A DNA stretch of 64,000 nt from [Candidatus Thermochlorobacteriaceae] bacterium GBChlB (GTDB taxonomy: Bacteria; Bacteroidota; Chlorobiia; Chlorobiales; Thermochlorobacteraceae): the NCBI GenBank assembly GCA_000724175.1, contig JPGV01000018.1:15647-79646 (forward strand), in the 5' to 3' direction. Position numbers and translations under genes: made by a program. Shown in pieces: positions 5,943 to 64,000 of this stretch. Position 1 is the stretch's first letter. The number at the start of each line of letters is the position of its first letter. Under the pieces are notes generated by a model, which made no database searches, was not told the DNA's origin, and saw only the letters and a list, made by a program, of their open reading frames with translations.

Positions 5943-8900
5943 ATGCGTAACTTGTGCCTGACCATCTTGTTGTGCTTACATTACCTAATCCTTGCCACTG
6001 TCGCTTTTGCGCAAGACCCGAAAGATTTAAAATTCGATAAATATTCAACCGACCAAGGGCTGTCGCAAAGCAACATCACAGCCATCGTTCAAGACAAGAT
6101 GGGCTTTGTTTGGCTTGGCACAACAGACGGGCTGAACCGCTTCGACGGCTACAACTTCACCGTGTTCGTCAACGACCCGCAAGTGCCGACCTCAATTTCA
6201 AGCAACGCCATTCAAGCCTTGTGTATTGACCGAAGCGGTGTATTGTGGGTTGGCACGCAGTCTGGGCTTTGTCGCACGACCGATGGCGGACTTAGCTTCG
6301 AGCGCTTGAAAGGCGAGCAAAATGCCACACTGCACAACGACAACATCACGGCAATTTTCGAGGAGAAGTCTGGCAACATACTCATTGGCACACAAGGCGG
6401 GCTTTACAAAACAAGCGACGGCGGCAAGAGCTTCAAGCAAATCGGCAATGATGCCCGCAAAGGCGCCAGCCTCGTTAGCGACGTCATTACAGCGATTACG
6501 GCGGATAACAACGGCGTTCTTTGGGTCGGCACCTTCGGCGGCGGCGTGGCAAAATCAACCGATGGCGGACAAACTTTCACATCGTTTCAACACAATCCCG
6601 ACAACGCCAAAACCATCAGCAGCGATACGATTACGGGCATTGCTATTGACAAAAAAAACCGCGTTTGGATTACCACCTTCGGCGGCGGCTTGAACGGACT
6701 TTACCCGAACCGAAAGGACTTCGACCGGCTGCGACACAGCCTCAATCGCTCCGACGACGATATGATGACCTCGATATGCCTTGCCAACGACGAGAACCTG
6801 TGGATAGGCTCGGTCGGTCGGCTCTGGCGGTATAATCCAAACTCTAAAAAAGAGCCTTGGCGAAACTATACCGTTGCACGTGGTTTGAGCGACAATCACA
6901 TCACGGTGGTCTATCAAGACAAAGCCGGGCTTATTTGGGCAGGAACATTCGGCGGCGGCGTCAATATCACTGACCCGTATGGCTCGGCAAAATTTGACTA
7001 TGTGATTGTCAAGCGGCGCAACCCGCGCGACGACCGATTCTACAACGAAGACGTCTCTGCTGTTTGGGAAGAAGGCACAGACAAGGACGGCTATCCGATA
7101 TTGCTTGTCGGCACAACGAGCAACGGGCTGTTTCGCGTCTATAAAAATATCTTGAGCCGTCTGCCGATTGAAGAGGCAAAAGCGGCTGCGCCCGCTGCTG
7201 GCAAAGGCAAAAAATCAAAACCCGTCAAGCGCAAAGCCAAACCCGCCAAGCAAGGCAAAAAAGTTGAGGCCAAAAAAAGTGAACGCACGCTCAGCAGTAA
7301 CTCTGTATCGGTGCTCCTGCGCGATAAGTCGGGCGTGCTGTGGGTCGGCACGGATAACGGACTCAACTACTACGACACGACCGATGGCAGAGGCTTTGCC
7401 GTCTTCAAATCGACGTCGGACAATCCGAAAAGTTTGAACGACAATTTCATCACGGCGCTGTGCGAAGACAAGTCGGGCAACCTGTGGGTTGGCACGAAAA
7501 ACGGATTGCATAAGCTCGCCAAGGCGAACCGCTACGATACCACAAAGGGTGGGCAGTTTGCGCTGTTCAAGACGGCGAGCGGGCTGTCGAGCAACGACAT
7601 CACGGTGCTGTTCGAAGACAAATCGGGCGCGCTCTGGATTGGCACGCGCGACGCAGGACTTTGCCGCACCACCGACGGCGGCGCGACCTTCACCAAATTC
7701 ACTGCCAGCCCACAAGGGTTGACGAACAACACCATCACGTCGATTTGTCAGGATAAAAAAGGCGCGATTTGGGTGAGCATCTTAGGCGGCGGACTCTGTC
7801 GCACGGTCGATAACGGCGCGACCTTCACGCCGTTCCGCGAGCGCGACGGGCTTGCCAGCGATGTAGTCTTTGGCGCCGTTGCCGATGAAGACGGAAATCT
7901 CTGGCTCAAAACGCGCAAAGGCATCACGAAATTCTCGCCGCCTAACGACGTAGCTGCCAAAGACCGCAAAGGCGGCTTGTTCCGCAACTATGATAAACGC
8001 GACGGGCTTTTGGTCAGGCAGTTCGACGCCGGCGGCTACCATATTGGCGCATCAGGGGCAATTTATTTCGGCGGCTTGGGCGTTGTGCATACGTTTTACC
8101 CTGAAGATTTGAAGGACAACGATGATGCGTTTGTGCCCCCCGTTGTTATCACTGGGCTGACGAAGTTCGACGGCACACAATTTACGCGCGACAGCAGCAT
8201 TATCATCAAAAAAGACATTGAACTGGCGCCAAAAGATTATCTATTCACAGTCGAGTTCTCCGCGCTCTCGTATTACTTGCAGGAAAAAAATCAGTATCAA
8301 TACAAGCTCGAGGGCTTCGATAAAATTTGGGTCGACGCACGGAAAGGTCAGCACGAAGCCACCTATACCAATATCGAGCCCGGAAAATATGTCTTTCGCG
8401 TGAAAGCCGCTGGACCAGACGGCATTTGGAACGAAGAAGGCGCATCGCTGACGGTCGATATCGTGCCGCCATTGTGGAAACGCTTGTGGTTTCAGGTGTT
8501 GGCGTTTCTCTCTGGCGTTGGCTTGATTGTCGGCCTGACCTCGTTCACGCAGCAACAGCGCATCAAGCGTATTGAGCGTCAAAAGGAAGAACTGGAATTT
8601 CAAGTGCAGGCGCGAACCAAAGACCTCGCCGAAAGCAACCTGAAATTGGAACAAACCAACAAGAGCTTAGCCGAGAGCAAAAAGCAACTCGAGGAAAGTA
8701 ATCAGGAAATTTTGGAGAAAAATAGAGAGATTACGTCGAGCATTGAATACGCCAAAACCATTCAACTTGCGCTCCTCCCGAGCCGCGACCGCCTGAAACG
8801 TGCTTTGCTCGAATACTTTATTTTGTATCGACCAAAGGATATTGTATCGGGCGATTTTTATTGGCTGCATGAGACAACCGACAAAGTGATTTTTGTTGTA

Positions 8901-10545: not shown

Positions 10546-11376
10546 ATGAAAAAAGAAAACCTTGACCGAATGAGCGCGATGAAGCGCGTTCAAGCGCGGC
10601 TGAATCTGGACGGAAAAACCGTGATGAAAACCAACAAGAAGCAGAAACAGAGCGAAGAGTACGAAAAAATCTTCAAACATGAATTGGACGTCGCAACCCA
10701 CGCCGCCAAGATGTTAGAGGACAATACGCTTAAAAAAGATGAATGGAAATCCGAATATGAAGCGCTGCTCAAAGAGTATAAAGCGCTCCTGCGCCAAGCC
10801 ATGAAGATGACCAAAATCGGCGACGGCACGCAGCAAAAATTGCTCAAAACACAAGAAGAACTCGCGCTCGCCAACGAAAAATTAGAACGACAAGCCGTAA
10901 CCGACGCGCTGACCGGCCTCTACAACCGACGCTACTTGGACGCCAAACTCGCCGATGCCTTCGAGACCGCCAAGCGCGACCACCAGCCACTTGCAGTCTC
11001 CATTAACGACATCGACTTCTTCAAAAAAATCAACGACCGATTCTCGCATCAAACCGGAGATGATGTGCTGCGCATCGTGGCAAAACTGCTGCGCGAGAGC
11101 GTCCGCAATGGCACAACCGTCGCTCGATACGGCGGCGAAGAATTTGTCATGGTCTTTCCCAACACGGATTTACACACAGCGGTCGCTGAGTGCGAAAAAG
11201 TCCGCAAAGCCATTGAGTCTTACGACTGGAAAACAGTGCATCTCGACCTTGCAGTAACGATTAGCATGGGCGTGTGTGCTGACCTCTCGCACGCGAACAG
11301 CGAAAAGTTTCTCTCTGCGGCTGACGAAAAACTCTACGAAGCCAAACACAACGGCAGAAATCAAGTGCGGTTCTGA
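10546..11376 (+). CDS. Diguanylate cyclase (coiled coil + GGDEF; SiaD-like position)
   Basis: GGDEF domain motifs: DALTGLYNRRYL, DIDFFKKINDRFSHQTGD, RYGGEEFVMVFP and LYEAKHNGRNQV. ATG at 10546 is preferred over the TTG at 10540. Confidence 0.85.
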   Translation: MKKENLDRMSAMKRVQARLNLDGKTVMKTNKKQKQSEEYEKIFKHELDVATHAAKMLEDNTLKKDEWKSEYEALLKEYKALLRQAMKMTKIGDGTQQKLLKTQEELALANEKLERQAVTDALTGLYNRRYLDAKLADAFETAKRDHQPLAVSINDIDFFKKINDRFSHQTGDDVLRIVAKLLRESVRNGTTVARYGGEEFVMVFPNTDLHTAVAECEKVRKAIESYDWKTVHLDLAVTISMGVCADLSHANSEKFLSAADEKLYEAKHNGRNQVRF

Positions 11377-53327: not shown

Positions 53328-54671
53328 ATGTTGAAAAAATACACTACCCACGTTCTCTCCGTCGCGCTTTTCTCGACAGCCGCTCTTTGCCCGCCGATGC
53401 TTGCATTTACGAGCGACGACGATGCTCGCGCCCTTGAAAAACTTCGTGCCGAAGTGGATAAACGCGCTGCCGCCATTGAAAAAAAAGTAATCGCGTGGCG
53501 ACGCGACTTGCACGCGAACCCCGAACTCGGCAATCGAGAGTTTCGCACGGCGAAACTTGTAGCAGAGCATTTGAAGTCGCTTGGCTTAGAGGTAAGAACG
53601 GGCGTCGCGCATACAGGCGTCGTGGCGATTTTGAAAGGCGGAAAGCCCGGCGCCGTGGTTGCACTTCGCGCCGATATGGACGGCTTGCCTGTAACCGAAG
53701 AAACCGATGTGCCGTTTGCCTCGAAGGTTCGCACCAAATACAACGGGTTCGATGTCGGCACGATGCACGCTTGCGGACATGATTGCCACGTCTCGATTCT
53801 AATGGGCGTCGCGGAAATTTTGGCAGAAATGAAATCGGAACTGAGAGGCACGGTTAAATTCATCTTTCAACCTGCCGAAGAAGGCGCGCCCGAGGGCGAG
53901 GAAGGTGGCGCTGCCTTGATGCTCAAGGAAGGTGCATTTGAAAATCCAAAGCCAGAAGCCGTCTTCGGCTTGCATGTTTTTTCAGGGATTGAAACGGGGA
54001 AAATCTCCTATCGACCGGGCGCGCTGATGGCAAGTAGCGACTTCCTGCGCATTCTCGTGCGCGGGCGACAAACGCACGGCGCGCGTCCGTGGGGCGGCGT
54101 CGACCCGATTGTCCTAAGTTCACAAGTCGTGATGGGATTGCAAACCATTGAAAGCCGACAAGTCGATGTAACCAAAGAGCCGTCGATTGTAACCGTCGCC
54201 ACAATTCACGGCGGCGTGCGGAACAACATCATTCCCGATAGCGTCGAGATGACCGGCACCATTCGGGCGTTTGACGATAACATGCAAAATGACATTCACG
54301 AGCGCATCAAAACAACGGCAGAGAACATCGCCAAGAGCGGCGGTGGCAGCGCAATAGTTCAAATTAAACGCGGCTATCCTGTTACGGTCAATGATGCTGC
54401 ACTCGCTGAAAAAATGTTACCGACCTTGAAACGTGTGGCGGGTGACGCCAACGTGATGTATCCGGGACAAAAGACGACCGGCGCGGAAGATTTCTCGTAT
54501 TTTCAGCGTCAGGTTCCCGGGCTTTTCTTCTTTTTGGGCGTAACGCCGAAAGAAAATTTATCGACCGCCGCATCAAATCACTCGCCGAAATTTTATGTCG
54601 ATGAGTCAGCGCTTATCGTCGGCGTTAAGGCGCTGACAAACCTTGCCATTGATTACTTGGAGAAAAAGTGA
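53328..54671 (+). CDS. M20-family amidohydrolase (aminoacylase/hippurate-hydrolase type), exported
   Basis: Signal peptide, then WRRDLHANPELGNREF, RADMDGLP, MHACGHD and GAEDF. Confidence 0.8.
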   Translation: MLKKYTTHVLSVALFSTAALCPPMLAFTSDDDARALEKLRAEVDKRAAAIEKKVIAWRRDLHANPELGNREFRTAKLVAEHLKSLGLEVRTGVAHTGVVAILKGGKPGAVVALRADMDGLPVTEETDVPFASKVRTKYNGFDVGTMHACGHDCHVSILMGVAEILAEMKSELRGTVKFIFQPAEEGAPEGEEGGAALMLKEGAFENPKPEAVFGLHVFSGIETGKISYRPGALMASSDFLRILVRGRQTHGARPWGGVDPIVLSSQVVMGLQTIESRQVDVTKEPSIVTVATIHGGVRNNIIPDSVEMTGTIRAFDDNMQNDIHERIKTTAENIAKSGGGSAIVQIKRGYPVTVNDAALAEKMLPTLKRVAGDANVMYPGQKTTGAEDFSYFQRQVPGLFFFLGVTPKENLSTAASNHSPKFYVDESALIVGVKALTNLAIDYLEKK

Positions 54672-54682
54672 TGGGCAATGGG

Positions 54683-55534
54683 TCATCGCCGCTGTTTCAA
54701 GACACGCTCTAATTCCGAGTTCAGCCAGCGTGGGTCGTCGTCGAGAAAGTGCGAAGAGCGAAGGCGCGCACGCTTGACGAGATTGAAATCTATGACGGCA
54801 TCGAGCGCGGTTTCTTCAAAGCAAGGCGCTTTGCAAATCACTGCGCCATCGGGTGAGATAAGTTCCGAGCCGCCCCAATACGATAGCCCGTCCTCATTGC
54901 CCGTGCGATTGATAAACGCGACATAGACACTAAGAAGCATAGCGTAAGTGCGCGACATCATCGACCAGCCTTCGGCGATTTTGAGCTCGCCGCTTGTGAA
55001 ATCAATGCGAAGCGGGCTGTTCGACATGGAGAATATCACCTTTGCGCCCTGCGCCGCCAAAAGATACGGCACGCCTAAATGCCAATTGTCCTCGCAAATC
55101 GCGACGCCGACGCTGCCCAACCGTCTCGAGACAAACGGCTTTGCTTCAATGCCAGCGGAAAAATATCTCAGCTCTTCGAACATGCCGTAAGTTGGCAAAT
55201 AGATTTTTCGGTGGACGGACGTGCCGTTGCCGTCCTCGAAAAAAAATGCAGCGTTGTAGACACCGTAATCGTCGGAGAGTTCGACTGCACCGCAGAGAAT
55301 TGAAATATGGTTGCTCAGGTCTCGCAAGGGCTGTAGCGAAGGGTCGTGGATATGGACGGCAATGTCTTGCGCAGCGTCTTGAAGATTATATCCCGCAAGC
55401 GAGAGTTCTGGAAAAGCAATAAACTCAATGCCGTCGCGAATGGCTTGTTCAATGTACGCCACGTGCTTTTGCAGATTTTTGTCAAAATTGGCAAGCGTGC
55501 AATCGTGCTGTGCGAGTCGGAGTGTAACGCTCAT
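54683..55534 (-). CDS. Carbon-nitrogen hydrolase (nitrilase superfamily)
   Basis: Elements of the E-K-C catalytic triad are present: FPELSLAGY and VAICEDNWH. Confidence 0.75.
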   Translation of the reverse strand: MSVTLRLAQHDCTLANFDKNLQKHVAYIEQAIRDGIEFIAFPELSLAGYNLQDAAQDIAVHIHDPSLQPLRDLSNHISILCGAVELSDDYGVYNAAFFFEDGNGTSVHRKIYLPTYGMFEELRYFSAGIEAKPFVSRRLGSVGVAICEDNWHLGVPYLLAAQGAKVIFSMSNSPLRIDFTSGELKIAEGWSMMSRTYAMLLSVYVAFINRTGNEDGLSYWGGSELISPDGAVICKAPCFEETALDAVIDFNLVKRARLRSSHFLDDDPRWLNSELERVLKQRR

Positions 55535-55759
55535 TCAGTTGTTGTTGGCTGTTGAAGATTGGCAGCAAAGATACGAAAGTCCATACTCAATCGCTGCTAA
55601 CCTTGCTCGTCGCCTGTCGATCGTGCCGACTATCGTTGAAATTTTCCAAACAGCGTTTTCTGTTCTCCGCCAATAAGGGTATGTGACGGCATTGCTGGTG
55701 CGATTGTCATGCACTTCACGCAATAGATTGGCGTCCATCTTGGCAACGCAGAAAGCCGA

Positions 55760-57559
55760 TTAGCTCAAATCGAACTGCAACTCGGAGAGATTGCGATAGA
55801 CGCCGTTCTCGAGTTCCATGAGTTCTGAGTGCGTGCCTTGCTCGACGGCTTGACCGTCTTTGACGACGACGATTTTATCTGCCGTGCGCACTGTGGATAA
55901 GCGGTGTGCGATGATAAACGACGTTCGTCCTTCCATCAAGTGGTCGAGCGCGTCCTGCACAAGCTTTTCCGATTCGGAATCGAGCGAGCTTGTGGCTTCG
56001 TCCAAAATCAGAATGGCGGGATTTTTCAGAATGGCTCTGGCGATAGCAACGCGCTGGCGCTGTCCGCCCGAAAGTTTTATGCCGCGCTCGCCGACGACAG
56101 TGTTGTAGCCTTCGGGAAACCCTGAAATAAATTCGTGCGCGTTGGCTTTTTTGGCGGCGTCAATAATTTCCGCTTCGCTTGCAGTTGGTTTGCCATAAGC
56201 GATGTTTTCCAAAATGCTGCCACCGAAGAGCAAGACGTCTTGCGGCACAATCGACATTTGCGCACGCAGTTCCGAGAGCGGGTAGTCGCGCGACTCGCGC
56301 CCGTCAATTAAAATGCGCCCTTTGTCTGGTTCATAGAACCGCAAAATGAGCGAGACAATCGTCGATTTGCCTGCGCCCGACGGACCGACGAAGGCGACGC
56401 GCTCGCCCGACTTTGCCGAGAACGAAATCCCTTTCAAGACTTTCACTTCTTTGCGCGAGGGATAGCTAAACTCTACGTCTTGAAACTCGACGTCGCCGCA
56501 GCAGCGTGGCAGCATAGCTGGCGCACTGTGGATGCCGACGGCTTCGCCTGTCTCGCGCAGAATTTCGCGCACGCGCTCGGTTGCGCCGACCGCCTTTTGA
56601 ATTTGGCTGTAAAGTTCCGCGAAACTGCCCATTGCTGCGCCGACGAAGGTGGTGTAGAGAATAAACGACGTCAGTTCGCCAATCGTCAACTCGCCGCTTC
56701 GAACAAAACGGCTGCCGACCCACAGCACCAAAATAATCGCGCCGAACAGCCCGAAGATGATGAACGAAAAAAACGCGGCACGAAACTGTGCATTCTTCAA
56801 GACGGTGCCAAGGTATGTAGAAATGCTTCTGCCATAGCGCGTAATTTCAAACTGTTCGTTTGAAAAAGCTTTGACGTTCGCAATGCCCTGCAAGGTCTCT
56901 TCAATGACGGTGCTGCTATCGGCGAGCTTGTCTTGTGCTTCGCGCGAGAGTTGTCGAATTTTTCGACCAAAGTAAACGGCAAGTGCAACGAGCAGCGGCA
57001 CGGCGGAGAGCATGACGAGCGTCAGTTGTGGCGATGTGTAAAAAATCAATCCTAAGCCGCCGATAAGTATCATGGTTTGGCGCAAGAGTTGCGCCAGCGT
57101 GAAGGTAAGCGTCTCTTGAATCTGCGAGAGGTCGGCAGAAAGGCGGCTGGTCAATTCGCCGACGCGACGCTGCGCAAAGAACGACATCGGCAGCGTGATA
57201 AGCTTAGCGTAAGACGTTTTGCGAAGGTCGACCAAACTGTTCTCGCCGACTTGCACAAACCAAATCGATTGATAGTATCCGAACACGGATTGCGCTGCCA
57301 ATGCAACGAAAAGCACCAGCGCGATGGCATCAATATCGCCGAGCCAGCCGTCGGATTTTCCCGCGAGCGCGCCGTCAATCAATTTGCCCGTTACAGCTGG
57401 AAAGACAAGTCCCAACAGACTTGATACCGCCAGCGCAACCAGTGCAGCAATAAATTTCCACTTGTAAGGCAGAACATATTTGAAGAGTTCAACCGCCTCT
57501 CTGAGCGATTCCTTAGTAAGTTTTGCCGCTGGAACATCGGGCTTTTGTTCTTTCGCCAT
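55760..57559 (-). CDS. ABC exporter, fused permease/ATPase (MsbA/multidrug type)
   Basis: 599 aa with six N-terminal TM helices, Walker A GPSGAGKST, signature LSGGQRQR and Walker B LILDEATS. Confidence 0.85.
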   Translation of the reverse strand: MAKEQKPDVPAAKLTKESLREAVELFKYVLPYKWKFIAALVALAVSSLLGLVFPAVTGKLIDGALAGKSDGWLGDIDAIALVLFVALAAQSVFGYYQSIWFVQVGENSLVDLRKTSYAKLITLPMSFFAQRRVGELTSRLSADLSQIQETLTFTLAQLLRQTMILIGGLGLIFYTSPQLTLVMLSAVPLLVALAVYFGRKIRQLSREAQDKLADSSTVIEETLQGIANVKAFSNEQFEITRYGRSISTYLGTVLKNAQFRAAFFSFIIFGLFGAIILVLWVGSRFVRSGELTIGELTSFILYTTFVGAAMGSFAELYSQIQKAVGATERVREILRETGEAVGIHSAPAMLPRCCGDVEFQDVEFSYPSRKEVKVLKGISFSAKSGERVAFVGPSGAGKSTIVSLILRFYEPDKGRILIDGRESRDYPLSELRAQMSIVPQDVLLFGGSILENIAYGKPTASEAEIIDAAKKANAHEFISGFPEGYNTVVGERGIKLSGGQRQRVAIARAILKNPAILILDEATSSLDSESEKLVQDALDHLMEGRTSFIIAHRLSTVRTADKIVVVKDGQAVEQGTHSELMELENGVYRNLSELQFDLS

Positions 57560-57653
57560 AATTGCAGACGTGTTTGTATCGGTGAAAATCGTTCAGGAAG
57601 GATTGTTCAACACAGCAAACGCGAAGTTACGGAATTTGTTGCTTAAAAGGACG

Positions 57654-57661
57654 TATCTTTA
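57654..57661 (+). promoter_or_regulatory. Candidate -7 box (TATCTTTA) for the GNAT gene
   Basis: The motif acgTATCTTTA ends 26 nt upstream of ATG 57688. Confidence 0.3.
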
Positions 57662-57687
57662 ATACCGAAATTGTATTTGCCACCGCC

Positions 57688-58311
57688 ATGTTCAACCGTA
57701 TCAAGCAACGGCGCTTTCGTTTTCCAGCCATGCCGCGCTCAAGGCGCTTACGCTTTAAGCGTGTCGCGAAAAAAGACGGTGATGCAATTTTCAACGCATT
57801 TTGCCGCGACGACAACCCCTTCGTTTCCATTGAGTTCAAAGACCGCGAGAAAGCCAACGATTGGGCAGACTATTCAGCGACGGGCGCGTTTCGCAGCAAA
57901 CACGCTGGCTGCGACTGGCTGATGTATGACGATAACAACCGCCTCGTCGGACTCTTGCACTACTACGACCTTTCGCGTGAGACGTTCAACAACAATCACA
58001 AGCGCTGTTCCATCGGCATTACAATTGCCGCGCCTTTCCGTCGGCAAGGATACGGCGAAGAAGCAGTTGTTGCGCTGTTGAGATATATTCTCACCAAACA
58101 GCCCAACATTGACCATATCTTAGCATACACCGATAAACGCAATACCGCAAGCGCGTCGCTCTTTCGCAACCTCGGTTTCTCGGAAAACGTAACGGACTAT
58201 CTTCGGCACGACGATTTTTACTACTTCACGCTCACGCGCTTGGAACTCTCTGCTCGATTTAACCAAACTGAACGTTCTGCGCCGCTCGTCTCACGAATTT
58301 TTCAACGCTAA
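57688..58311 (+). CDS. GNAT-family N-acetyltransferase (RimJ/RimL-like)
   Basis: 207 aa with the acetyl-CoA binding region IAAPFRRQGYGEEAVVALLRY. Confidence 0.7.
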   Translation: MFNRIKQRRFRFPAMPRSRRLRFKRVAKKDGDAIFNAFCRDDNPFVSIEFKDREKANDWADYSATGAFRSKHAGCDWLMYDDNNRLVGLLHYYDLSRETFNNNHKRCSIGITIAAPFRRQGYGEEAVVALLRYILTKQPNIDHILAYTDKRNTASASLFRNLGFSENVTDYLRHDDFYYFTLTRLELSARFNQTERSAPLVSRIFQR

Positions 58312-58421
58312 CCCTTAAACGACAGCGACGGAAAAAGATTTTTTCATCAGAAACGTTTTCGAGAAATTTAACTTTTTCTTAAACTGAAAGAATCTTGACA
58401 CATGCTGCTGCACATATCGCT

Positions 58422-59210
58422 ATGACCAAAGAAGATGTTTTACAACGAGTGCCGCCGCTAAGACTGCCGCCTGTGCAAGACCTTGCCGTTGGCAGAACCT
58501 TAGTGGTCATTCCAACATACAACGAAGCCGAAAACATTCCACTCGTCGTTGAAATGCTGACGAGTTTGGAAATTCCCTCGCTCGAGATTCTCATCATTGA
58601 CGACAACTCGCCCGACGGCACGGCGCTCATTGTTGAAGCGTTGATGCAGAAAAATAAACGTCTGCACCTCATCAAGCGCGAAGGCAAGTTAGGACTCGGA
58701 ACGGCTTACGTGCGTGGCTTTAAGTTCGCGTTAGAAAAAAAATTCGACTTTGTGATGGAAATGGACGCCGACCTATCGCACGACCCGCGTATGATTCCAC
58801 ATTTTTTGGTGGCAATCAAAGACGCGGATTTGGTCATTGGCTCGCGCTATATGGGCGAAGTGGCGAATGTCGTCAACTGGCCGCTGTCTCGCTTAATCCT
58901 TTCCAAAGGCGCAAGCATCTATACACGCACAATTACAGGCATGCCGATTCAAGACCCGACGGGCGGATTCAAATGCTTTCGTAAAGAAGTCTTACAATCG
59001 CTCAACCTCGACGAAATTCGCTCTGGCGGATACTCTTTCCAAATTGAGATGAATTTCAAAACGTGGTGCAAGGGTTTCCGCATCAAAGAAATCCCGATTG
59101 TGTTCGTCGATCGCACCGTTGGCAAATCGAAAATGTCGCGCAAAATTGTCTACGAGGCAATTCGCATGGTGTGGGTGTTGAAGTTCAAGCAGCTTTTCGG
59201 GAGGCTGTAA
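58422..59210 (+). CDS. Polyprenol-phosphate mannose synthase-like GT2 glycosyltransferase
   Basis: VVIPTYNEAENI, IIDDNSPDGT and MDADLSHDP. ATG 58422 is preferred over the TTG at 58395. Confidence 0.8.
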   Translation: MTKEDVLQRVPPLRLPPVQDLAVGRTLVVIPTYNEAENIPLVVEMLTSLEIPSLEILIIDDNSPDGTALIVEALMQKNKRLHLIKREGKLGLGTAYVRGFKFALEKKFDFVMEMDADLSHDPRMIPHFLVAIKDADLVIGSRYMGEVANVVNWPLSRLILSKGASIYTRTITGMPIQDPTGGFKCFRKEVLQSLNLDEIRSGGYSFQIEMNFKTWCKGFRIKEIPIVFVDRTVGKSKMSRKIVYEAIRMVWVLKFKQLFGRL

Positions 59211-59291
59211 CTGCGCGCGCTTAACGCCCTCAGCCAATTCTGCCAACGACTCCGTCTGCGACGACGCGACGCAAAAGCGCGGCGAGTTTCG

Positions 59292-59299
59292 TATCTTTG
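59292..59299 (+). promoter_or_regulatory. Candidate -7 box TATCTTTG (exact TAnnTTTG) for the bi-domain oxidoreductase
   Basis: The motif tcgTATCTTTGcgg ends 30 nt upstream of ATG 59330. It overlaps the track ORF start at 59297, which argues for the ATG 59330 start. Confidence 0.4.
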
Positions 59300-59329
59300 C
59301 GGCTCACAAAAATTCAATGTGCAACCGCT

Positions 59330-61486
59330 ATGCAGCAACTTGTTCAAAACTCCCGTTCTGGCGTCATTAAAATCAATACTGTTCCACCGCCCGCCTTGAA
59401 GCGCGGCATGGTCTTGGTTCGAAATCGGTTCAGCCTGATTTCGGCAGGCACGGAACGCTCGAAAGTCGAGATGGGCAAAAAATCGCTTCTGGGCAAAGCG
59501 ATGGCGCGTCCCGATTTAGTCAAACTCGTGTTGAAACAAGTCAAAGAGCAAGGCTTACTCGATACCGCTGCGCGCGTGATGAATAAACTCGGCACTGATT
59601 CGGCGATGGGCTATTCGTCGGCGGGCGTCGTGATGGAAATATCCGACGATGTATCGGAATTCCGCGTCGGCGAGCGGGTCGCGTGCGCAGGCGGCGGCTA
59701 TGCCTCCCATGCCGAGTTTATCGTTGTGCCGAAAAATCTCGTCGCTAAAATTCCCGACAATGTTTCGTTTCAAGACGCTGCTTATACCACGCTTGGCGCG
59801 ATTGCGATGCAAGGCTTACGACAAGCCAATCCGACGCTCGGCGAAACCATCGTCGTCATCGGGCTTGGCTTGCTGGGACAAATTTTAATTCAACTCTTGA
59901 AAGCCAACGGATGCCGCGTCGTCGGCGTCGACATCAATCCCGACGCAATCGCCTTAGCGGCGCAGCACGGCAGCGACCTTGCCATTTCGCGCAACGAAGA
60001 GACGATTAAAGAACAAATTAAAGCCTTCACAAACGGACACGGCGCAGACGCGGTCATCATCACTGCATCGACCTCTGCCAACGACCCAGTTGAATTTGCC
60101 GCCGATGTGATGCGCGATAGAGGCAGAGTGGTGATGGTTGGCGTTACAGGCATGAACTTGCCGCGCACGCCCTACTACATGAAAGAATTAGAATTTAAAC
60201 TCTCACGCTCCTACGGTGCAGGACGCTACGACGCAACCTACGAAGAAAAAGGGATTGATTATCCGATTGGCTACGTGCGTTGGACCGAAAATCGAAATAT
60301 GCAAACCTTCTTGCAACTGCTTGCCGAAAAAAAACTCAACCTCGAAAAACTCACCACGCACGTCTTTCCGATTGCGCAAGGCGAAGAAGCCTACAAACTC
60401 ATTAGCGGCGAGCGTCAAGAACGCTACATCGGCATCTTGCTCGACTACGGCGAGATACGCGATGACGGCCACACAGCGCATAAGCCGACAGCACTAAAAA
60501 CAAACGGAACAATTTCGAGCGGAAAGGCGAATGCGAAAAACATCGCGTTCATTGGCGCTGGCAGTTTTGCCACGGGCTACCTGATTCCAAACTTGAAATC
60601 CATCGACGGCGTCTCGCTCGATATGGTCTGCAATTCAACGGGGATGACAGCAGAAAGCGTGCGGGCACAGTTCGGATTTAAACGCGCCTCGTCCAACATC
60701 GACGATGTGTTCTCGGACGAGAGCATCGGCACGGTGTTCATCGCCACGCGGCACAATTTGCACGCAGAACTGGTCGTTAGGGCGTTGGAGTCAGGAAAGC
60801 ACGTGTTCGTCGAAAAACCGCTCTCGATTGATGAAGACGGCTTGAACAAAATCATCGCTGCGGCGGAGAGGCATCCGCATCTGCAAGTATTGACGGGCTT
60901 TAACAGGCGATTTAGTGAGCCTGTAAAATTGCTTCGTCAGTATTTTATGCGACTGCAAGAGCCGATTTCCGTCAGCTATCGCGTCAATGCCGGCGCGTTG
61001 CCACCCGACCATTGGACGCAAGATTTGAACGAAGGCGGCGGCAGGCTCATCGGCGAAGGCTGCCACTTCATCGACACCATTCAATACCTCGTCGGCTCTG
61101 AACCCGTGCGTGTTTTTGCGGAAATGCTGCCAACAACAGTGCGCGAAAATTTACTCATCACGATTCGCTTTCAGAACGGCAGCGTCGGCACGATTCAGTA
61201 TCTCTGCAACGGCGATAAACTTTATCCAAAAGAGCGCATTGAAATTTTCGGTGGCAATCGAATCGCCGTGATGGAAAATTTCAAAACTGTGATGCTCTCG
61301 GAGCAAGGCGCGCAGCGCGTCCGCGAGTTCGGCGGTGGCAAAGGTCATAAAGAGGAACTTGCTGCGTTCATGGCGTCGGTCGAGAGCGGCGTTCCAGCGA
61401 TTGAGTTTCGAAGCCAAGTCTTGACCACGCTTGCTACGTTCCGCATCAACGACAGTTTAAACACAGGTTTCGCGGAAGAGATGTAA
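59330..61486 (+). CDS. Bi-domain oxidoreductase (zinc-type alcohol dehydrogenase/MDR + Gfo/Idh/MocA)
   Basis: N-terminal half is MDR with the Rossmann motif VIGLGLLGQ. C-terminal half is Gfo/Idh/MocA with IAFIGAGSFA and VFVEKPL. Confidence 0.8.
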   Translation: MQQLVQNSRSGVIKINTVPPPALKRGMVLVRNRFSLISAGTERSKVEMGKKSLLGKAMARPDLVKLVLKQVKEQGLLDTAARVMNKLGTDSAMGYSSAGVVMEISDDVSEFRVGERVACAGGGYASHAEFIVVPKNLVAKIPDNVSFQDAAYTTLGAIAMQGLRQANPTLGETIVVIGLGLLGQILIQLLKANGCRVVGVDINPDAIALAAQHGSDLAISRNEETIKEQIKAFTNGHGADAVIITASTSANDPVEFAADVMRDRGRVVMVGVTGMNLPRTPYYMKELEFKLSRSYGAGRYDATYEEKGIDYPIGYVRWTENRNMQTFLQLLAEKKLNLEKLTTHVFPIAQGEEAYKLISGERQERYIGILLDYGEIRDDGHTAHKPTALKTNGTISSGKANAKNIAFIGAGSFATGYLIPNLKSIDGVSLDMVCNSTGMTAESVRAQFGFKRASSNIDDVFSDESIGTVFIATRHNLHAELVVRALESGKHVFVEKPLSIDEDGLNKIIAAAERHPHLQVLTGFNRRFSEPVKLLRQYFMRLQEPISVSYRVNAGALPPDHWTQDLNEGGGRLIGEGCHFIDTIQYLVGSEPVRVFAEMLPTTVRENLLITIRFQNGSVGTIQYLCNGDKLYPKERIEIFGGNRIAVMENFKTVMLSEQGAQRVREFGGGKGHKEELAAFMASVESGVPAIEFRSQVLTTLATFRINDSLNTGFAEEM

Positions 61487-61497
61487 CCTTCAGTCTT

Positions 61498-62013
61498 TCA
61501 AAATTTTTGACGAGGAAGCGACTCCTGCTTATCAGAAACGCACAAGGCAATGCTGTTCCACCTTTCTTCAAACGCACTTGCCCGATACCTCAATCGTCCA
61601 ACGCTTGGGTCAATCAACAAAACCGATTCGGCTTCAACGGATTCTACAACGACAAAGTGATTGTCGTTGATGTGCGCGATTGCAGGCAATCCGAGTTTCA
61701 TCAGGTCGTTCAGAGTCGTTTTATAGCCTGTGCAATGCAAGCCTTGTTTGCTCAACGCAGCTTTAATATCGAGTAAGGTTACGCCGCTGTCGCTCGGTTT
61801 CAGGAGCGTGTCTATTGCATCAGGATTTTTGTTGAACGCCATCAATACATTTTTCGCCGCCGCAATGCCGCAATCGTTCCTGTTTTTTTGTCTAATCACA
61901 GTTTCCGTATCCAATACTTCGGTTTTGAACGTTTGACTAATCGCATATCCGGATATCGCTCCAAATACGACGACAAGCGATATGACAAGCAACTGACGAA
62001 ACCTGATGTTCAT
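61498..62013 (-). CDS. Stand-alone C39-family cysteine peptidase domain with an N-terminal membrane anchor or signal
   Basis: 171 aa with N-terminus MNIRFRQ + LLVISLVVVFGAISGYAI. The catalytic set is Q42 (QKNRND), C48 (DCGIAA), H119 (NHFVVV) and D135 (LIDP). The Q-to-C spacing is 6 and the H-to-D spacing is 16, as in bacteriocin-processing C39 domains. The start overlaps the TPR gene stop (ATGA). Confidence 0.75.
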   Translation of the reverse strand: MNIRFRQLLVISLVVVFGAISGYAISQTFKTEVLDTETVIRQKNRNDCGIAAAKNVLMAFNKNPDAIDTLLKPSDSGVTLLDIKAALSKQGLHCTGYKTTLNDLMKLGLPAIAHINDNHFVVVESVEAESVLLIDPSVGRLRYRASAFEERWNSIALCVSDKQESLPRQKF

Positions 62014-63236
62014 TTTTTCTCCGTTGATTTAGTGTTCAGCGCAACCAAATACTCTTGTAACTCTTCCATGAACGTTTGAATCTCCATCAATGAAAGGCTC
62101 ATATCTGCAAGAAATCTCTGTTTTTCATTAAACGCTTGTCCAGAATTATTCGTGTCTGCGGCTGTAAAATTGTTGCCTAACTTTACAAGCAAAGATTTAA
62201 AGTCTTGAAGTTTACGAAACAACTTTTCATTGTTGGTTCTCCGTGCAAGTTCTTCTAAACGAGACCCTATCTCGTTGATTGCCTCTGCCGTGCGCCGGAG
62301 AGCACCGTCAGGATTGACATTGATATTTGTTTGAGCGATGTTTAGTGAGAGACGTTGCTGTCTTGTTATTTCAACCATTTTGACGACGGATTTCTCCACA
62401 TCAAGCGGCAAGGCTTCCACCACAATTTCAGGCGTGTTGTAAAAACGCAACGTGTCGCTTCCAGCTTCCTGCTCATATTTCGCCAGAAACTTTTCCGCAG
62501 CATCGCTGCCTAAACTTCGTGCCTTGACCATATCCAGGTATCCTGCAACTCTCTCGCCCGTCGCCATCCTCACGCTGCCGCGCTCAAAGTATGCTTCGGC
62601 GCTTGCTCTTATCTTGATTGATTCAGTTAGCTCCGTTTCGGCGCGCTCGTATTTTTTTTGCTTCTTGTAAATGAGCGCACGGCGAAGATAGGCTTCGGCG
62701 GTTCTCTCAATCTGTAACGCTTTCGTGAAGTCTTCCAATGCCAGTGAGTCCAAATTTTGCTTGTCGTAACAGATGCCGCGATAAAGCAAACAGTTATACT
62801 GACTATACACCGTCGTGTCTTTTTCGAGTGTAACTGTAAAGTCATTCACTGCATCTGGGTATTCAGCAAGTTGAAGCCGGACAACAGCCCGTCCGAAATA
62901 CAAGTCGGCAAGATTGGAATTAAGAAAAATGGCTTTGGTGAAATCGGCATTGGCGCGCGCGTAATCCTTCAATTGCTTGCGTAGCATTGCGCGATGATGG
63001 TAGCCGTCGATGCTGTCGGGTGCTATCGCAATTGCTTTACTGAAATCTTCCAACGCGCCAAGCGTGTCGTGCGTCAGTTGTTTAAGTTGACCGCGTGCGA
63101 TAAACAACTCTAATGTCGGCGATTTGTTAATTTGCTTATCTATTGAATTCATTTGTTCTTTCAAGAACTGCGCCTCAGTAGTCAATGCAAAGCATATGTA
63201 AGAAACGCCTATTGTAACTTTGAGCCATTGTTTCAT
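62010..63236 (-). CDS. Exported TPR-repeat protein with a C-terminal helical module
   Basis: Start at ATG 63236 (signal-like MKQWLKVTIGVSYICFALTTEAQ). It has several TPR-like 34-mers (ALEDFSKAIAIAPDS..., ANADFTKAIFLNSN..., AVNDFTVTLEKD..., ALEDFTKALQIE...). The track TTG start is 63329. Confidence 0.7.
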   Translation of the reverse strand: MKQWLKVTIGVSYICFALTTEAQFLKEQMNSIDKQINKSPTLELFIARGQLKQLTHDTLGALEDFSKAIAIAPDSIDGYHHRAMLRKQLKDYARANADFTKAIFLNSNLADLYFGRAVVRLQLAEYPDAVNDFTVTLEKDTTVYSQYNCLLYRGICYDKQNLDSLALEDFTKALQIERTAEAYLRRALIYKKQKKYERAETELTESIKIRASAEAYFERGSVRMATGERVAGYLDMVKARSLGSDAAEKFLAKYEQEAGSDTLRFYNTPEIVVEALPLDVEKSVVKMVEITRQQRLSLNIAQTNINVNPDGALRRTAEAINEIGSRLEELARRTNNEKLFRKLQDFKSLLVKLGNNFTAADTNNSGQAFNEKQRFLADMSLSLMEIQTFMEELQEYLVALNTKSTEKK

Positions 63237-63267
63237 CTTATTTCTGCTTGACAAGTTGATTACATTT

Positions 63268-63291
63268 AGAGAGGGAGATGACTCCCTCTCT
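63268..63291 (-). promoter_or_regulatory. Perfect 9-bp stem-loop (AGAGAGGGA-gtcatc-TCCCTCTCT) between the short peptide ORF and the TPR gene
   Basis: Read directly. No U-tract follows, so it is not a canonical terminator. It could be a transcript-stabilising or attenuating hairpin. Confidence 0.5.
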
Positions 63292-63303
63292 AAGACGACT
63301 GCT

Positions 63304-63450
63304 TCAAAGAGGTCCGTTCCCCCAAGCAAACCAGCACCATTCGCCCCACGAAGTTAGTTCGCAACACCAATAGACGCCGGTTCGCCCAAATTGAGTACAA
63401 CTTGGTTCTCTCCCACTTACCCCATCGAGTTGTTCATCGCTGAGTTGCAC
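63304..63450 (-). CDS. Candidate double-glycine-type precursor peptide (48 codons, GTG start), Cys/Trp-rich core
   Basis: Own translation: (V/M)QLSDEQLDGVSG-REPSCTQFGRTGVYWCCELTSWGEWCWFAWGNGPL*. It is below the 60-aa track cutoff. The leader resembles LSxEELxxVxGG and it lies 67 nt upstream of the TPR/C39 genes. The frame stays open upstream of the GTG. Confidence 0.4.
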   Translation of the reverse strand: MQLSDEQLDGVSGREPSCTQFGRTGVYWCCELTSWGEWCWFAWGNGPL

Positions 63451-63554
63451 GGTTTGCGCGACGGTTGCGGTTGTGCGGTGCGGTTCGGAATCACGGTTGC
63501 CGCGCTGCCGCCAAGCAACAGCACGAGCATTGCCAAAGACATGAGCTTTTTCAT
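63417..63554 (-). CDS. Short ORF encoding a Sec-type signal peptide (45 codons), overlapping the precursor ORF in another frame
   Basis: Own translation: MKKLMSLAMLVLLLGGSAATVIPNRTAQPQPSRKPCNSAMNNSMG*. The ATG lies 10 nt after the upstream stop. This may be the true 5' end of the precursor gene if there is a 1-nt indel or a -1 frameshift. Confidence 0.3.
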   Translation of the reverse strand: MKKLMSLAMLVLLLGGSAATVIPNRTAQPQPSRKPCNSAMNNSMG

Positions 63555-63566
63555 TTGTTGGAAAGT

Positions 63567-64000
63567 TTATTTTTTGGAAGCTGTTTGTTCCCGTTCCGCC
63601 AAGCGTTCCTGAAATTCGAAAAATAACTGCTCAATTTTCAATTGTAGTTTGGCAAGTTCCTCGTTGTTGGTAGAAGCTCCCGAATTCTTAAGTCCGAGAT
63701 ACAGTTCTGCAAAGTCATCGGCAAGCGGCTCAATTCTGTTCGCAATCTCCAATAACATTCCGTCTTTAATTGTCAGAGCTTGTTGTTTAAGCAACAAGGC
63801 TATGCAACGCATATTCAATGAACTTGTCCGGCGGGTTGATACTTCCGCTTCGCTACAATTCGAAGGTGAGAGTTCCAAGAATGATGCATTGATTTGCATT
63901 TGCGGTTTGACTGCCGCGCCAAATGTTGGCAAAATTGCGACAGCAGGCTTTTGAACTACCATCATATTGAGTTTGGCGCGCTGCATCAGCATTTTCGACG
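63567..64000 (-). CDS. Hypothetical helical protein, probably 5'-truncated by the window edge
   Basis: The track ORF is 63567..63992 and the frame stays open to position 64000. The C-terminal 92 aa resemble the C-terminal module of the TPR protein. Confidence 0.45.
   Translation of the reverse strand, partial: SKMLMQRAKLNMMVVQKPAVAILPTFGAAVKPQMQINASFLELSPSNCSEAEVSTRRTSSLNMRCIALLLKQQALTIKDGMLLEIANRIEPLADDFAELYLGLKNSGASTNNEELAKLQLKIEQLFFEFQERLAEREQTASKK

What the first reader, a model, noticed from the sequence alone, without database searches (positions are those of the whole stretch)
63304..63554. Candidate precursor is split across two overlapping frames: signal peptide in one, GG-type leader plus core in the other
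Frame A (ATG 63554 to TAA 63417) encodes a textbook Sec signal (n-region KK, h-region LMSLAMLVLLL, c-region GGSAA) followed by 25 unremarkable residues. Frame B (-1 relative to A) has no stop across this region, but its only start codon is GTG 63450, with no Shine-Dalgarno sequence. It encodes the leader-like LSDEQLDGVSG and the Cys/Trp-rich core, ending at 63304. The frames overlap by 34 nt.

A single missing base in the assembly, or a -1 ribosomal frameshift, anywhere between about 63494 and 63448 would fuse them. The product would be one ~80-aa pre-pro-peptide: Sec signal, then GG-type propeptide, then core. That is exactly what a periplasm-facing C39 peptidase would need as a substrate. 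The candidate shift zone is repetitive (gaaccgcaccgcacaaccgcaaccgtcgcgcaaaccg), but I see no canonical X-XXY-YYZ slippery heptamer. The alternative is two independent mini-ORFs.
Basis: inference. Interest (0 to 1): 0.7.

Follow-up and report, generated by a model that had tools for sequence, protein, structure and literature searches.

The report
Frameshifted secreted-peptide precursor gene remnant
The two overlapping mini-ORFs are the halves of one small secreted-peptide precursor gene that has lost a single G, and it is most likely a decaying spare copy; intact relatives show an unusual design in which an export signal, a double-glycine propeptide and a Cys/Trp-rich peptide sit beside a membrane-anchored C39 protease predicted to face the periplasm.

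Summary
On the minus strand, frame A (63554-63417) encodes a Sec-type signal. Frame B (open upstream, first start GTG 63450, stop 63304) encodes TVQLSDEQLDGVSG plus a Cys/Trp-rich core.

The two frames are one gene. A syntenic locus in a near-identical genome (L001) carries a continuous 83-aa ORF with the same signal, propeptide and core. The window differs by exactly one missing G (CAACCGGCAACC to CAACCGCAACC, between 63468 and 63467). All six other leader copies retrieved are in frame there.

No slippery heptamer, homopolymer or downstream RNA structure supports programmed frameshifting.

The window copy has two further lesions. The invariant Gly-Gly is Gly-Arg (AGA 63411-63409). The conserved 5' region with AAGGAG is deleted. 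No other frame-breaking indel occurs in about 7-8 kb of aligned flanking genes.

I therefore read it as a real pseudogene (about 0.7). An assembly error is the main rival (about 0.2).

The family is tiny: nine proteins among billions searched, apparently one hot-spring Chlorobi lineage. Its copies are often damaged. The architecture recurs in a distant cluster (L008): Sec signal, GG propeptide, TM-anchored C39, thioredoxin/MauE. I found no description of it in the literature I searched.

The parts
63304..63554 (-). Whole remnant of the precursor gene: signal, propeptide and core, interrupted by a 1-nt deletion.
   Evidence: It is 91% identical in DNA to the continuous 252-nt gene of L001 (10001-10252), with one gap. 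The fused translation matches P0001 at E = 9e-42.
63417..63554 (-). Frame A ORF (45 aa). Residues 1-29 are the genuine signal and the start of the propeptide (MKK / LMSLAMLVLLL / GGSAA, then TVIPNRTAQP). Residues 30-45 are an out-of-frame reading of the propeptide.
   Evidence: tblastn of the family leader matches 63554-63468 in this frame at 93% identity.
63304..63467 (-). Frame B segment homologous to the rest of the propeptide (ATVAQTVQLSDEQLDGVSG-R) and the Cys/Trp-rich core (EPSC...WGNGPL), with stop TGA at 63306-63304. GTG 63450 is only the first possible start in this frame.
63467..63468 (.). Site of the missing G. The window reads CAACCG|CAACCG. L001 has CAACCGGCAACCG and L002 and L006 have CAACCCGCAACCG.
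   Evidence: It is the only gap in the 1,137-nt alignment to L001.
63409..63411 (-). AGA (Arg) codon at the position of the second Gly of the invariant Gly-Gly cleavage motif (GGA in L001).
   Evidence: All six other leader copies retrieved as DNA have GG codons, and P0007 and P0008 show GG in protein. The only other exception is the dead fusion copy in L010, which has EG.
63555..63566 (-). A 12-nt junction (ACTTTCCAACAA) between the stop of the upstream TPR gene and the precursor ATG. The conserved 5' region found in front of other copies (ATGTAYTTATTCAACAATTTTAATTTACAAAAGGAGCAACAA) is absent.
   Evidence: alignment A3. The left half matches what follows TPR#1 in L002 and the right half matches the last bases before the precursor start. 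This is consistent with a deletion between AAATG microhomologies.
63266..63293 (-). Hairpin with a 12-bp perfect stem, starting 11 nt after the precursor stop and lying before the TPR gene.
   Evidence: -21.6 kcal/mol, z = -4.69, 0 of 200 shuffles fold as well. The other six copies have hairpins of different sequence at the same place (z = -3.0 to -5.1).
62010..63236 (-). TPR protein #2 (408 aa) with an N-terminal signal-like segment. It is the cassette partner of the precursor. The real start is ATG 63236, not the TTG 63329 that the ORF listing reports.
   Evidence: Pfam TPR_1 and TPR_2 at E = 1e-17 to 1e-18. The first 275-290 residues are 85-88% identical to the L001 TPR.
61498..62013 (-). 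Stand-alone C39 cysteine peptidase (171 aa) with an N-terminal transmembrane anchor (MNIRFR-QLLVISLVVVFGAISGYAI). The catalytic Gln, Cys, His and Asp are all present.
   Evidence: Pfam PF03412 at E = 4.6e-28. The alignment to the LahT peptidase domain 6mpz has Q, C, H and D aligned. There are below-threshold matches to FapD and FilB.
63567..64000 (-). C-terminal 143 codons of another TPR protein (TPR#1), running off the end of the window. It belongs to the preceding cassette.
   Evidence: It is 91.6% identical to residues 225-367 of TPR#1 in L002, which follows precursor P0004.

Best explanation
The region is a single gene for a small pre-pro-peptide that has been inactivated.

**How the intact family is predicted to work (inferred)**
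1. An N-terminal Sec-type signal (MKK, hydrophobic core, GGSAA) takes the peptide across the inner membrane.
2. A conserved propeptide of about 28 residues ends in QLSDEQLDGVxGG.
3. That propeptide is recognised and removed after Gly-Gly by the neighbouring C39 cysteine peptidase. This enzyme is membrane-anchored and predicted to face the periplasm.
4. A thioredoxin-like protein and a MauE/DoxX-like membrane protein, encoded beside the intact copies, oxidise the Cys-rich core.
5. Each precursor is followed by a hairpin and by a TPR protein with a signal-like N-terminus. That TPR protein is probably a cognate binding or immunity-like partner.

**What has happened to the window copy (shown)**
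- One G is missing between 63468 and 63467. Translation from ATG 63554 therefore runs out of frame after ...TAQP and stops at 63417.
- The second Gly of the cleavage motif is Arg.
- The gene's own conserved 5' region is deleted.

**Conclusion (inferred)**
It is a degenerating second cassette. The C39 peptidase and the TPR genes remain intact. They probably serve an intact paralogue, P0002, which I infer lies just beyond the end of the window. The cleavage, topology and activity steps above are also inferred.
For: **The two frames are one gene**
- P0001 is a continuous 83-aa ORF with the same signal, propeptide and core.
- It sits in a syntenic locus, L001: Trx-like, MauE, precursor, TPR, C39, then the same oxidoreductase, GT2, acetyltransferase and ABC genes as in the window.
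- The DNA alignment shows exactly one gap, the missing G.
- All six other leader copies are in frame at that site.

**The lesion is probably real rather than random error**
- The flanks are 97.5% (6.1 kb, L001) and 96.7% (8.4 kb, L006) identical to the window. They contain no frame-breaking indel inside any coding region.
- GG has become GR in the window, while every intact copy keeps GG.
- The conserved 5' region with AAGGAG is lost.
- If the window is the GBChlB contig, as contig length indicates, the data are Illumina MiSeq PE300.

**Decay is common in this island**
- L006: chimeric precursor, with an extra G that shifts its core out of frame, and a 1-nt deletion in C39.
- L010: out-of-frame fusion, GG changed to EG, and a shifted C39 C-terminus.
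- L002: in-frame TGA in P0004.
- L003 and L004: N-terminally truncated copies.

**The design is real**
- The C39 has its catalytic Q, C, H and D and an N-terminal TM segment.
- A distant cluster, L008 (C39 49% identical), has two precursors with textbook signals (AGA|, VRA|). Each is followed by a ...GG motif. The cluster also encodes Trx-like, MauE and a TM-anchored C39.

**No recoding signals**
- There is no slippery heptamer.
- The downstream fold has z = -0.57.
Against: - The reads were not available, so a consensus error at this position cannot be excluded. The leader is a near-identical repeat within the genome and the source is a metagenome bin, both of which raise local error risk.
- Frame B is still free of stops and the core is well conserved against L001. 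If the deletion is real, it is recent.
- Arg at position -1 has not been tested on this class of C39, so GR might still be cleavable.
- Export, cleavage, disulfide formation and any activity of the family are all inferred. No experiment exists.
- The source and the position of the intact paralogue P0002 are inferred from matching contig length (99,065) and from synteny with L002. They were not read directly.
Confidence: 0.7

Rival explanations
1. Assembly or consensus error. The organism carries CCGG, and the gene is a continuous 83-codon ORF in vivo.
For: - The change is a 1-nt deletion in a GG dinucleotide, and it restores the frame perfectly.
- The source appears to be a metagenome bin assembled with CLC.
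- The leader is nearly identical between paralogues, which can confuse assembly or polishing.
- Frame B has no stop and the core is conserved.
Against: - Illumina data have low indel rates.
- No other frame-breaking indel occurs in about 7-8 kb of aligned coding flank.
- The same copy carries two independent lesions that an indel error would not explain: GG to GR, and loss of the 5' region.
- Independent assemblies of related strains show comparable damage confined to this island.
Confidence: 0.2
2. Programmed -1 ribosomal frameshift or transcriptional slippage joins frame A to frame B to make the full pre-pro-peptide.
For: Only that the two frames overlap and that frame B is open upstream. 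The shift zone contains a short tandem repeat, CAACCG x2.
Against: - There is no X-XXY-YYZ heptamer and no homopolymer longer than 3 in 63494-63448.
- tRNA-Pro on CCG cannot re-pair at -1 on ACC.
- The downstream RNA is no more structured than shuffles (z = -0.57).
- All six other copies are in frame at this site, so the arrangement is not conserved.
- The product would carry GR instead of GG.
Confidence: 0.03
3. Two independent functional mini-ORFs. One would be a 45-aa secreted peptide from frame A. The other would be a 48-aa cytoplasmic GG-leader peptide from GTG 63450.
For: Both ORFs exist formally.
Against: - The tail of frame A is just the out-of-frame reading of the conserved propeptide DNA. 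In relatives the same alternative reading is part of no gene.
- GTG 63450 has no Shine-Dalgarno sequence. It lies inside the conserved propeptide codons (TVQLSDE), and in relatives it is an internal Val.
- A product from GTG would lack the signal needed to reach a C39 that faces the periplasm.
Confidence: 0.03

Closest known systems
Double-glycine (GG) leader peptides of class II bacteriocins, microcins and Nif11/NHLP-type RiPP precursors. These are cleaved by the C39 peptidase domain of PCAT ABC exporters such as LahT, ComA, CvaB and PCAT1.
   Same: - The propeptide ends in QLSDEQLDGVxGG. This is the same motif as the C-terminal end of Nif11-type leaders; P0013, for example, has ELSDEQLDGVSGG.
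- The cores are small, variable and Cys-rich.
- The neighbouring protease is a true C39 with Q, C, H and D. Its best solved relatives are the LahT and PCAT1 peptidase domains.
- The L008 cores weakly resemble class IIb bacteriocins.
   Different: - A Sec-type signal precedes the GG propeptide.
- The C39 is a stand-alone protein of 160-175 aa with one N-terminal TM helix. It is not the cytoplasmic domain of an ABC exporter. No PCAT gene is in the island.
- Cleavage is therefore predicted to occur outside the cytoplasm.
- No curated leader model (TIGR01847, Nif11, NHLP, CTB) reaches its threshold on these precursors.
FapD, the periplasmic C39 peptidase of the Pseudomonas Fap functional-amyloid system (PMC5557850). 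The NCBIfam models for FapD and for FilB, a putative pilus-system C39, are related.
   Same: It is a C39 protease that acts outside the cytoplasm on Sec-exported substrates. The window enzyme gives weak matches to both models (E about 1e-11).
   Different: - The scores are far below the family cut-offs (44 bits against 330 and 475).
- FapD's substrate is unknown, and Fap proteins lack a canonical GG leader.
- Here the presumed substrates carry a canonical GG motif.
- No amyloid or pilus genes are in the locus.
Sec-dependent class II bacteriocins, for example enterocin P and lactococcin 972 (from my own knowledge).
   Same: They are small secreted peptides that use a Sec signal rather than a dedicated ABC exporter.
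   Different: Those have no GG propeptide and no C39 processing step. They come from Gram-positive bacteria.
MauE/MauD of methylamine dehydrogenase maturation (from my own knowledge, plus Pfam PF07291).
   Same: A MauE-like membrane protein paired with a thioredoxin-like protein lies next to a Cys/Trp-rich periplasmic substrate.
   Different: No mau genes are present. The substrate is a small peptide. In the window these two genes are not within the 64 kb read.
Programmed -1 frameshift sites, such as dnaX and IS3-family transposases.
   Same: There are two overlapping frames whose fusion gives the full product.
   Different: There is no slippery heptamer, no stimulatory structure and no conservation of the arrangement.

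Membership tests
Double-glycine leader peptide (substrate of a C39 peptidase) | Leader ends in the consensus L-S-x-x-E-L-x-x-[IVL]-x-G-[GAS] | tested here: not met
   The family meets it: QLSDEQLDGV[QSK]GG in P0001-P0009. The window copy has LSDEQLDGVSG-R, with Arg at -1. The window copy itself therefore fails the last position.
Double-glycine leader peptide (substrate of a C39 peptidase) | A C39 peptidase is encoded nearby | tested here: met
   C39 gene at 61498-62013, PF03412 at E = 4.6e-28. The same holds in L001, L003, L004 and L008.
Double-glycine leader peptide (substrate of a C39 peptidase) | The leader is the extreme N-terminus, and export is by a peptidase-containing ABC transporter (PCAT) | tested here: not met
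   A Sec-type signal precedes the propeptide. The C39 is stand-alone with a TM anchor. There is no PCAT in the island.
Double-glycine leader peptide (substrate of a C39 peptidase) | Actual cleavage after Gly-Gly | not testable with these tools
   This needs mass spectrometry of processed peptide or an in vitro assay.
Sec-type signal peptide | Positively charged n-region, hydrophobic h-region of 7-15 residues, and a c-region with small residues at -3 and -1 | tested here: met
   By inspection: MKK / LMSLAMLVLLL / GGSAA|T, with S at -3 and A at -1. The L008 precursors show AGA| and VRA|. No SignalP-type predictor was available.
Peptidase C39 (active enzyme, not an inactive C39-like domain) | Pfam PF03412 above its gathering score, and catalytic Gln, Cys, His and Asp present | tested here: met
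   98.1 bits against a cut-off of 22. Q, C, H and D align with those of the LahT peptidase domain 6mpz. Spacing is Q-x5-C and H-x15-D.
FapD / FilB families (NCBIfam NF058616, NF050078) | Score above the curated cut-off | tested here: not met
   44.4 bits against 330, and 44.6 bits against 475.
Programmed -1 ribosomal frameshift | Slippery heptamer X-XXY-YYZ in the zero frame at the shift site | tested here: not met
   Codon-by-codon reading of 63494-63448 finds none.
Programmed -1 ribosomal frameshift | Stimulatory RNA structure 5-9 nt downstream | tested here: not met
   Fold of 63480-63380: z = -0.57, and 53 of 200 shuffles fold at least as well.
Programmed -1 ribosomal frameshift | The two-frame arrangement is conserved in orthologues | tested here: not met
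   All six other copies are in frame at the site.
Pseudogene | Frame disruption relative to intact orthologues | tested here: met
   There is one 1-nt gap against L001 and L006.
Pseudogene | Additional inactivating changes, or loss of expression signals | tested here: met
   GG changed to GR. The conserved 5' region with AAGGAG is deleted.
Pseudogene | The lesion is present in the organism and not only in the assembly | not testable with these tools
The indirect argument comes from the clean flanks and the Illumina chemistry.

The most novel reading that the evidence does not exclude
The family to which this broken copy belongs may be an undescribed maturation route for class II-bacteriocin-like peptides in diderm bacteria.

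- The precursor would be exported by Sec.
- Its double-glycine propeptide would be removed in the periplasm by a membrane-anchored stand-alone C39 protease.
- Its core would be oxidised by a thioredoxin/MauE pair.
- No PCAT exporter would be involved.
- A cassette-specific periplasmic TPR protein would act as a cognate immunity-like partner. It is retained even where the precursor and protease decay.

If so, this would be the first periplasm-facing C39 (FapD-like class) with an obvious canonical substrate.
Probability: 0.5. Interest if true: 0.6.

Novelty: new variant of a known kind. Interest (0 to 1): 0.42.

Why it matters
The split ORF itself is ordinary. It is a one-base lesion in a spare gene copy, and it should be annotated as a frameshifted pseudogene, not as two small proteins or a recoding site.

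The family it reveals has more value. C39 peptidases are textbook cytoplasmic domains of bacteriocin ABC exporters. The one studied periplasmic member, FapD, still has no known substrate (PMC5557850).

Here, intact relatives pair a periplasm-facing C39 with precursors that carry both a Sec signal and a canonical GG motif. That gives a directly testable substrate-enzyme pair for this class. It also suggests that GG-leader peptides can be matured outside the cytoplasm.

The island is also a compact example of cassette turnover. Precursor and protease genes are repeatedly broken, while the TPR partner stays intact.

Tried and rejected
- **Wider scans for the family.** The search for related loci with the C39 protein and with the precursor alignment found nothing in genome contigs. 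In metagenome contigs it found only the contig already in hand. No further independent copy of the window sequence could be obtained to test the deletion.
- **Exact-sequence look-ups.** The look-up of encoding contigs for the window's own C39 and TPR proteins, and for P0002, returned nothing on record.
- **Curated family models on the precursors.** Pfam and NCBIfam gave no significant family, only sub-threshold matches to Lactococcin, CTB and class IIb models.
- **Exhaustive profile search.** A search of 1.84 billion representatives added nothing beyond P0001-P0009.
- **Literature.** Searches for Sec plus double-glycine, for periplasmic C39, and for MauE with C39 found only the FapD work. One search was wasted on terms that were too broad.
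- **AlphaFold of P0001.** With a 5-row alignment it gave mean pLDDT 64 and pTM 0.33. That is too weak, so no fold search was run.
- **Ideas rejected.**
  - Programmed frameshift: no signals.
  - Phase variation: the repeat is only CAACCG x2.
  - Initiation at GTG 63450: it is an internal Val codon in all relatives.
  - The first GG in the signal (LLLGG) as a cleavage motif: there is no leader-like context.

Full report
**1. The observation**

On the minus strand, ATG 63554 opens a 45-codon ORF that ends at TAA 63417. It encodes MKKLMSLAMLVLLLGGSAATVIPNRTAQPQPSRKPCNSAMNNSMG.

The -1 frame is open for at least 99 codons upstream of its stop at 63304. Its first ATG/GTG/TTG is GTG 63450. It reads ...TTATVAQTVQLSDEQLDGVSGREPSCTQFGRTGVYWCCELTSWGEWCWFAWGNGPL. 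The overlap is 34 nt.

**2. The two frames are one gene**

I fused the frames in silico and searched the 5.8-billion-protein collection. The best hit, P0001, is a continuous 83-aa protein. It matches at E = 9e-42, with 86% identity and 100% coverage:

MKKLVSLAMLVLLLGGSAATVIPNSTAQPATVAQTVQLSDEQLDGVQGGQPSCTQFGRTGVYWCCEYTGWTEWCWFAWGNGPL

Five further proteins share the signal and the propeptide but carry unrelated Cys-rich cores.

P0001's contig (locus L001) is syntenic with the window. Its gene order is Trx-like, MauE, precursor, TPR protein, C39 peptidase. The same convergent oxidoreductase, GT2, acetyltransferase and ABC-transporter genes follow, as at window 55760-61486.

The DNA alignment of the two precursor genes has exactly one gap. 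L001 reads CAACCGGCAACC and the window reads CAACCGCAACC. The missing G falls between 63468 and 63467. With that base restored, the window encodes an 83-aa protein that is 90% identical to P0001.

I recovered six other leader copies from five loci. Each has either the L001 length or is 3 nt shorter at this place. None shares the window's frame break.

**3. Programmed frameshift is not supported**

- Frame A codons between 63494 and 63448 contain no X-XXY-YYZ heptamer and no run longer than AAA.
- A -1 slip of tRNA-Pro from CCG to ACC is not possible by pairing (established knowledge).
- The 100 nt from the site onward fold no better than shuffles (z = -0.57).
- The arrangement is not conserved in relatives.

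**4. A real lesion is more likely than an assembly error**

The window and L001 are 97.5% identical over 6.1 kb of flanking genes. The window and a third strain (L006) are 96.7% identical over 8.4 kb.

The only gaps in those alignments fall outside the window's coding frames:
- one is a compensating 2+2 pair;
- several are intergenic;
- one lies just after a stop codon;
- one is a 1-nt deletion in L006's own C39 gene.

So the window has no other frame-breaking indel in about 7-8 kb of coding sequence.

The window's own C39 protein is listed on a contig of 99,065 bases. That is the same length as the contig carrying P0002, from Candidatus Thermochlorobacteriaceae bacterium GBChlB. P0002 also shares the window-specific residues (LM, NRTAQ). 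The window is therefore very probably from that bin. It was sequenced with Illumina MiSeq PE300 and assembled with CLC from a hot-spring metagenome (PMC4161750).

Two further lesions affect the same copy:
- The invariant Gly-Gly is Gly-Arg, AGA at 63411-63409 against GGA in L001. Among all copies seen, only this one and a clearly dead fusion copy in L010 (Glu-Gly) lack GG.
- The conserved 5' region that precedes other copies is absent. That region reads ...TTTAATTTACAAAAGGAGCAACAA[A/C]TG and is found in L001, twice in L002, and in P0002 and P0007. In the window, the precursor ATG sits 12 nt after the stop of an upstream TPR gene. The junction looks like a deletion between AAATG microhomologies.

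An indel error in the assembly would explain neither of these. I put a real pseudogene at about 0.7 and an assembly error at about 0.2. Only the reads can settle it.

**5. The island and its turnover**

The precursor and the 5' part of the TPR gene are only 88.6% identical between the window and L001. The 3' part of the TPR gene and the 5' part of the C39 gene do not align at all at DNA level, although the flanks are near-identical.

The ORF upstream of the window's precursor (63567 to beyond 64000) is the C-terminal part of another TPR protein. It is 91.6% identical to TPR#1 of L002, which follows precursor P0004, the orthologue of P0002. The window therefore shows the second unit of a tandem array (precursor-TPR)n-C39. 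The intact P0002 probably lies just beyond the window (inference).

Damage is frequent across the family:

| Locus | Lesion |
|---|---|
| L002 (P0004) | TGA where P0002 has Trp |
| L002 (both copies) | CTG in place of ATG |
| L003, L004 | Copies lack the MKKLVSLA N-terminus |
| L006 | Precursor is a chimera of fragments of three upstream genes |
| L006 | Extra G in the GGGGGG run at the GG codons throws an ICF-type core into the +1 frame |
| L006 | C39 gene has a 1-nt deletion |
| L010 | Precursor joined out of frame to a Trx-like N-terminus |
| L010 | C39 has a shifted C-terminus |

TPR genes are full length in every locus. TPR type tracks core type in three groups, with L003 as an exception.

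**6. How the intact system most likely works**

*Shown*
- The precursors have an n/h/c signal architecture.
- The propeptide ends in a motif identical to the end of Nif11-type GG leaders.
- The neighbouring protease is a bona fide C39 with its catalytic Q, C, H and D. Its closest solved relatives are the LahT and PCAT1 peptidase domains.
- All homologues of this protease have one N-terminal hydrophobic segment preceded by positive charges.
- Intact loci encode a thioredoxin-like protein and a MauE/DoxX-like membrane protein just upstream.
- Each precursor is followed by a strong hairpin of variable sequence.
- A much more distant cluster (L008, C39 49% identical) has the same logic:
  - a LytTR regulator, Trx-like and MauE;
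  - two precursors with textbook signals, GG motifs and hydrophobic Cys-pair cores;
  - several membrane proteins, a TM-anchored C39 and an ABC ATPase.
  - One of its cores is weakly similar to class IIb bacteriocins.

*Inferred*
- Sec export.
- Removal of the signal.
- Removal of the propeptide after Gly-Gly by the periplasm-facing C39.
- Oxidative folding by Trx/MauE.
- A bacteriocin-like or signalling role for the mature peptide.
- A cognate binding or immunity-like role for the TPR protein.
- The hairpin setting the ratio of precursor to downstream transcripts.

How the mature peptide would cross the outer membrane is unknown.

**7. Comparison with what is known**

The system works like a GG-leader bacteriocin or RiPP precursor with its C39 protease. 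It fails the membership criteria that the leader be N-terminal and that export be by a PCAT.

It resembles FapD in having a C39 outside the cytoplasm. Its scores are far below the FapD and FilB cut-offs. FapD's substrate is unknown and non-canonical.

Full-text searches found no description of precursors with a Sec signal and a GG propeptide, or of MauE/Trx combined with C39. That is absence in the searchable library, not proof of novelty.

The family is very small. Nine proteins reach E below 1e-10 in both the word-indexed search and the exhaustive search.

**8. Verdict**

The recoding option is not supported. The most likely state is a pseudogenised spare cassette.

As a split ORF it is ordinary. 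As a pointer to a Sec-dependent GG-propeptide system with a periplasm-facing C39, it is a moderately interesting new variant of a known kind.

Noticed in passing
window 63266-63293 (-); L001 10265-10292, L002 about 4369-4395, L003 about 313-343, L004 about 3014-3035, L006 about 10594-10621, L010 about 6594-6624: Every precursor copy is followed within about 10-25 nt of its stop by a strong GA/CT-rich hairpin. The sequence differs between cassettes (z = -3.0 to -5.1). Some hairpins have a T-run after them and some, including the window's, do not. This is likely an attenuator, terminator or stability element between the precursor and the TPR gene.
   Followed up: partly
L006 10461-10580: This is a second case of leader in one frame and core in another. 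An extra G in the GGGGGG run that encodes Gly-Gly puts a 4-Cys core (KICFGTTIFGGFLCYQRCIDPYGGEDYVLIEFGGC) into the +1 frame. The same locus has a 1-nt deletion in its C39 gene (L006 12331). Its precursor N-terminus is a chimera of fragments of three upstream genes.
   Followed up: partly
L010 6150-6600 and 8001-8549: The precursor is joined out of frame to the N-terminus of a Trx-like gene, and its GG has mutated to EG. The C39 (P0026) has a frameshifted C-terminus that reads into the opposite-strand gene.
   Followed up: partly
L002 4033-4360: P0004 has an in-frame TGA exactly where its orthologue P0002 has Trp (AQYY*QQS against AQYYWQQS). The rest of the core is conserved in frame. Both L002 copies have CTG where the others have the ATG start.
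   Followed up: no
window 61878 to beyond 64000, against the flanks 53440-61875: This is a hypervariable island. The flanking genes are 97-98% identical between strains. The precursor and the 5' part of the TPR gene are about 88% identical. The 3' part of the TPR gene and the 5' part of the C39 gene cannot be aligned at DNA level. Island gene content differs in each of four strains (window, L001, L006, L010).
   Followed up: partly
all loci: window 62010-63236, L001 10320-11585, L002 4569-5672 and 6318-7631, L004 3132-4355, L006 10604-11947, L010 6682-7974: TPR genes are intact in every locus, even where the precursor or C39 is broken. TPR type co-varies with core type in three groups, with L003 as an exception. 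This fits a cognate or immunity-like partner kept under selection.
   Followed up: partly
L008 1105-9198: This is a distant cluster with the same logic: LytTR regulator, Trx-like, MauE, two Sec-signal and GG precursors with hydrophobic Cys-pair cores, four membrane proteins of about 240 aa, a TM-anchored C39, another membrane protein and an ABC ATPase. There is no TPR protein here.
   Followed up: partly
window about 55609-55752, against L001 17869-20112: L001 carries a 747-aa TPR/histidine-kinase gene between the ABC transporter and the CN-hydrolase gene. The window, L006 and L010 lack it.
   Followed up: no
window 63237-63329 (-): The TTG 63329 start that the ORF listing gives for the TPR ORF overlaps the 3' end of the precursor and is an artefact. 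By homology with L001, the start is ATG 63236, followed by a signal-like segment (MKQWLKVTIGVSYICFALTTEAQ).
   Followed up: yes
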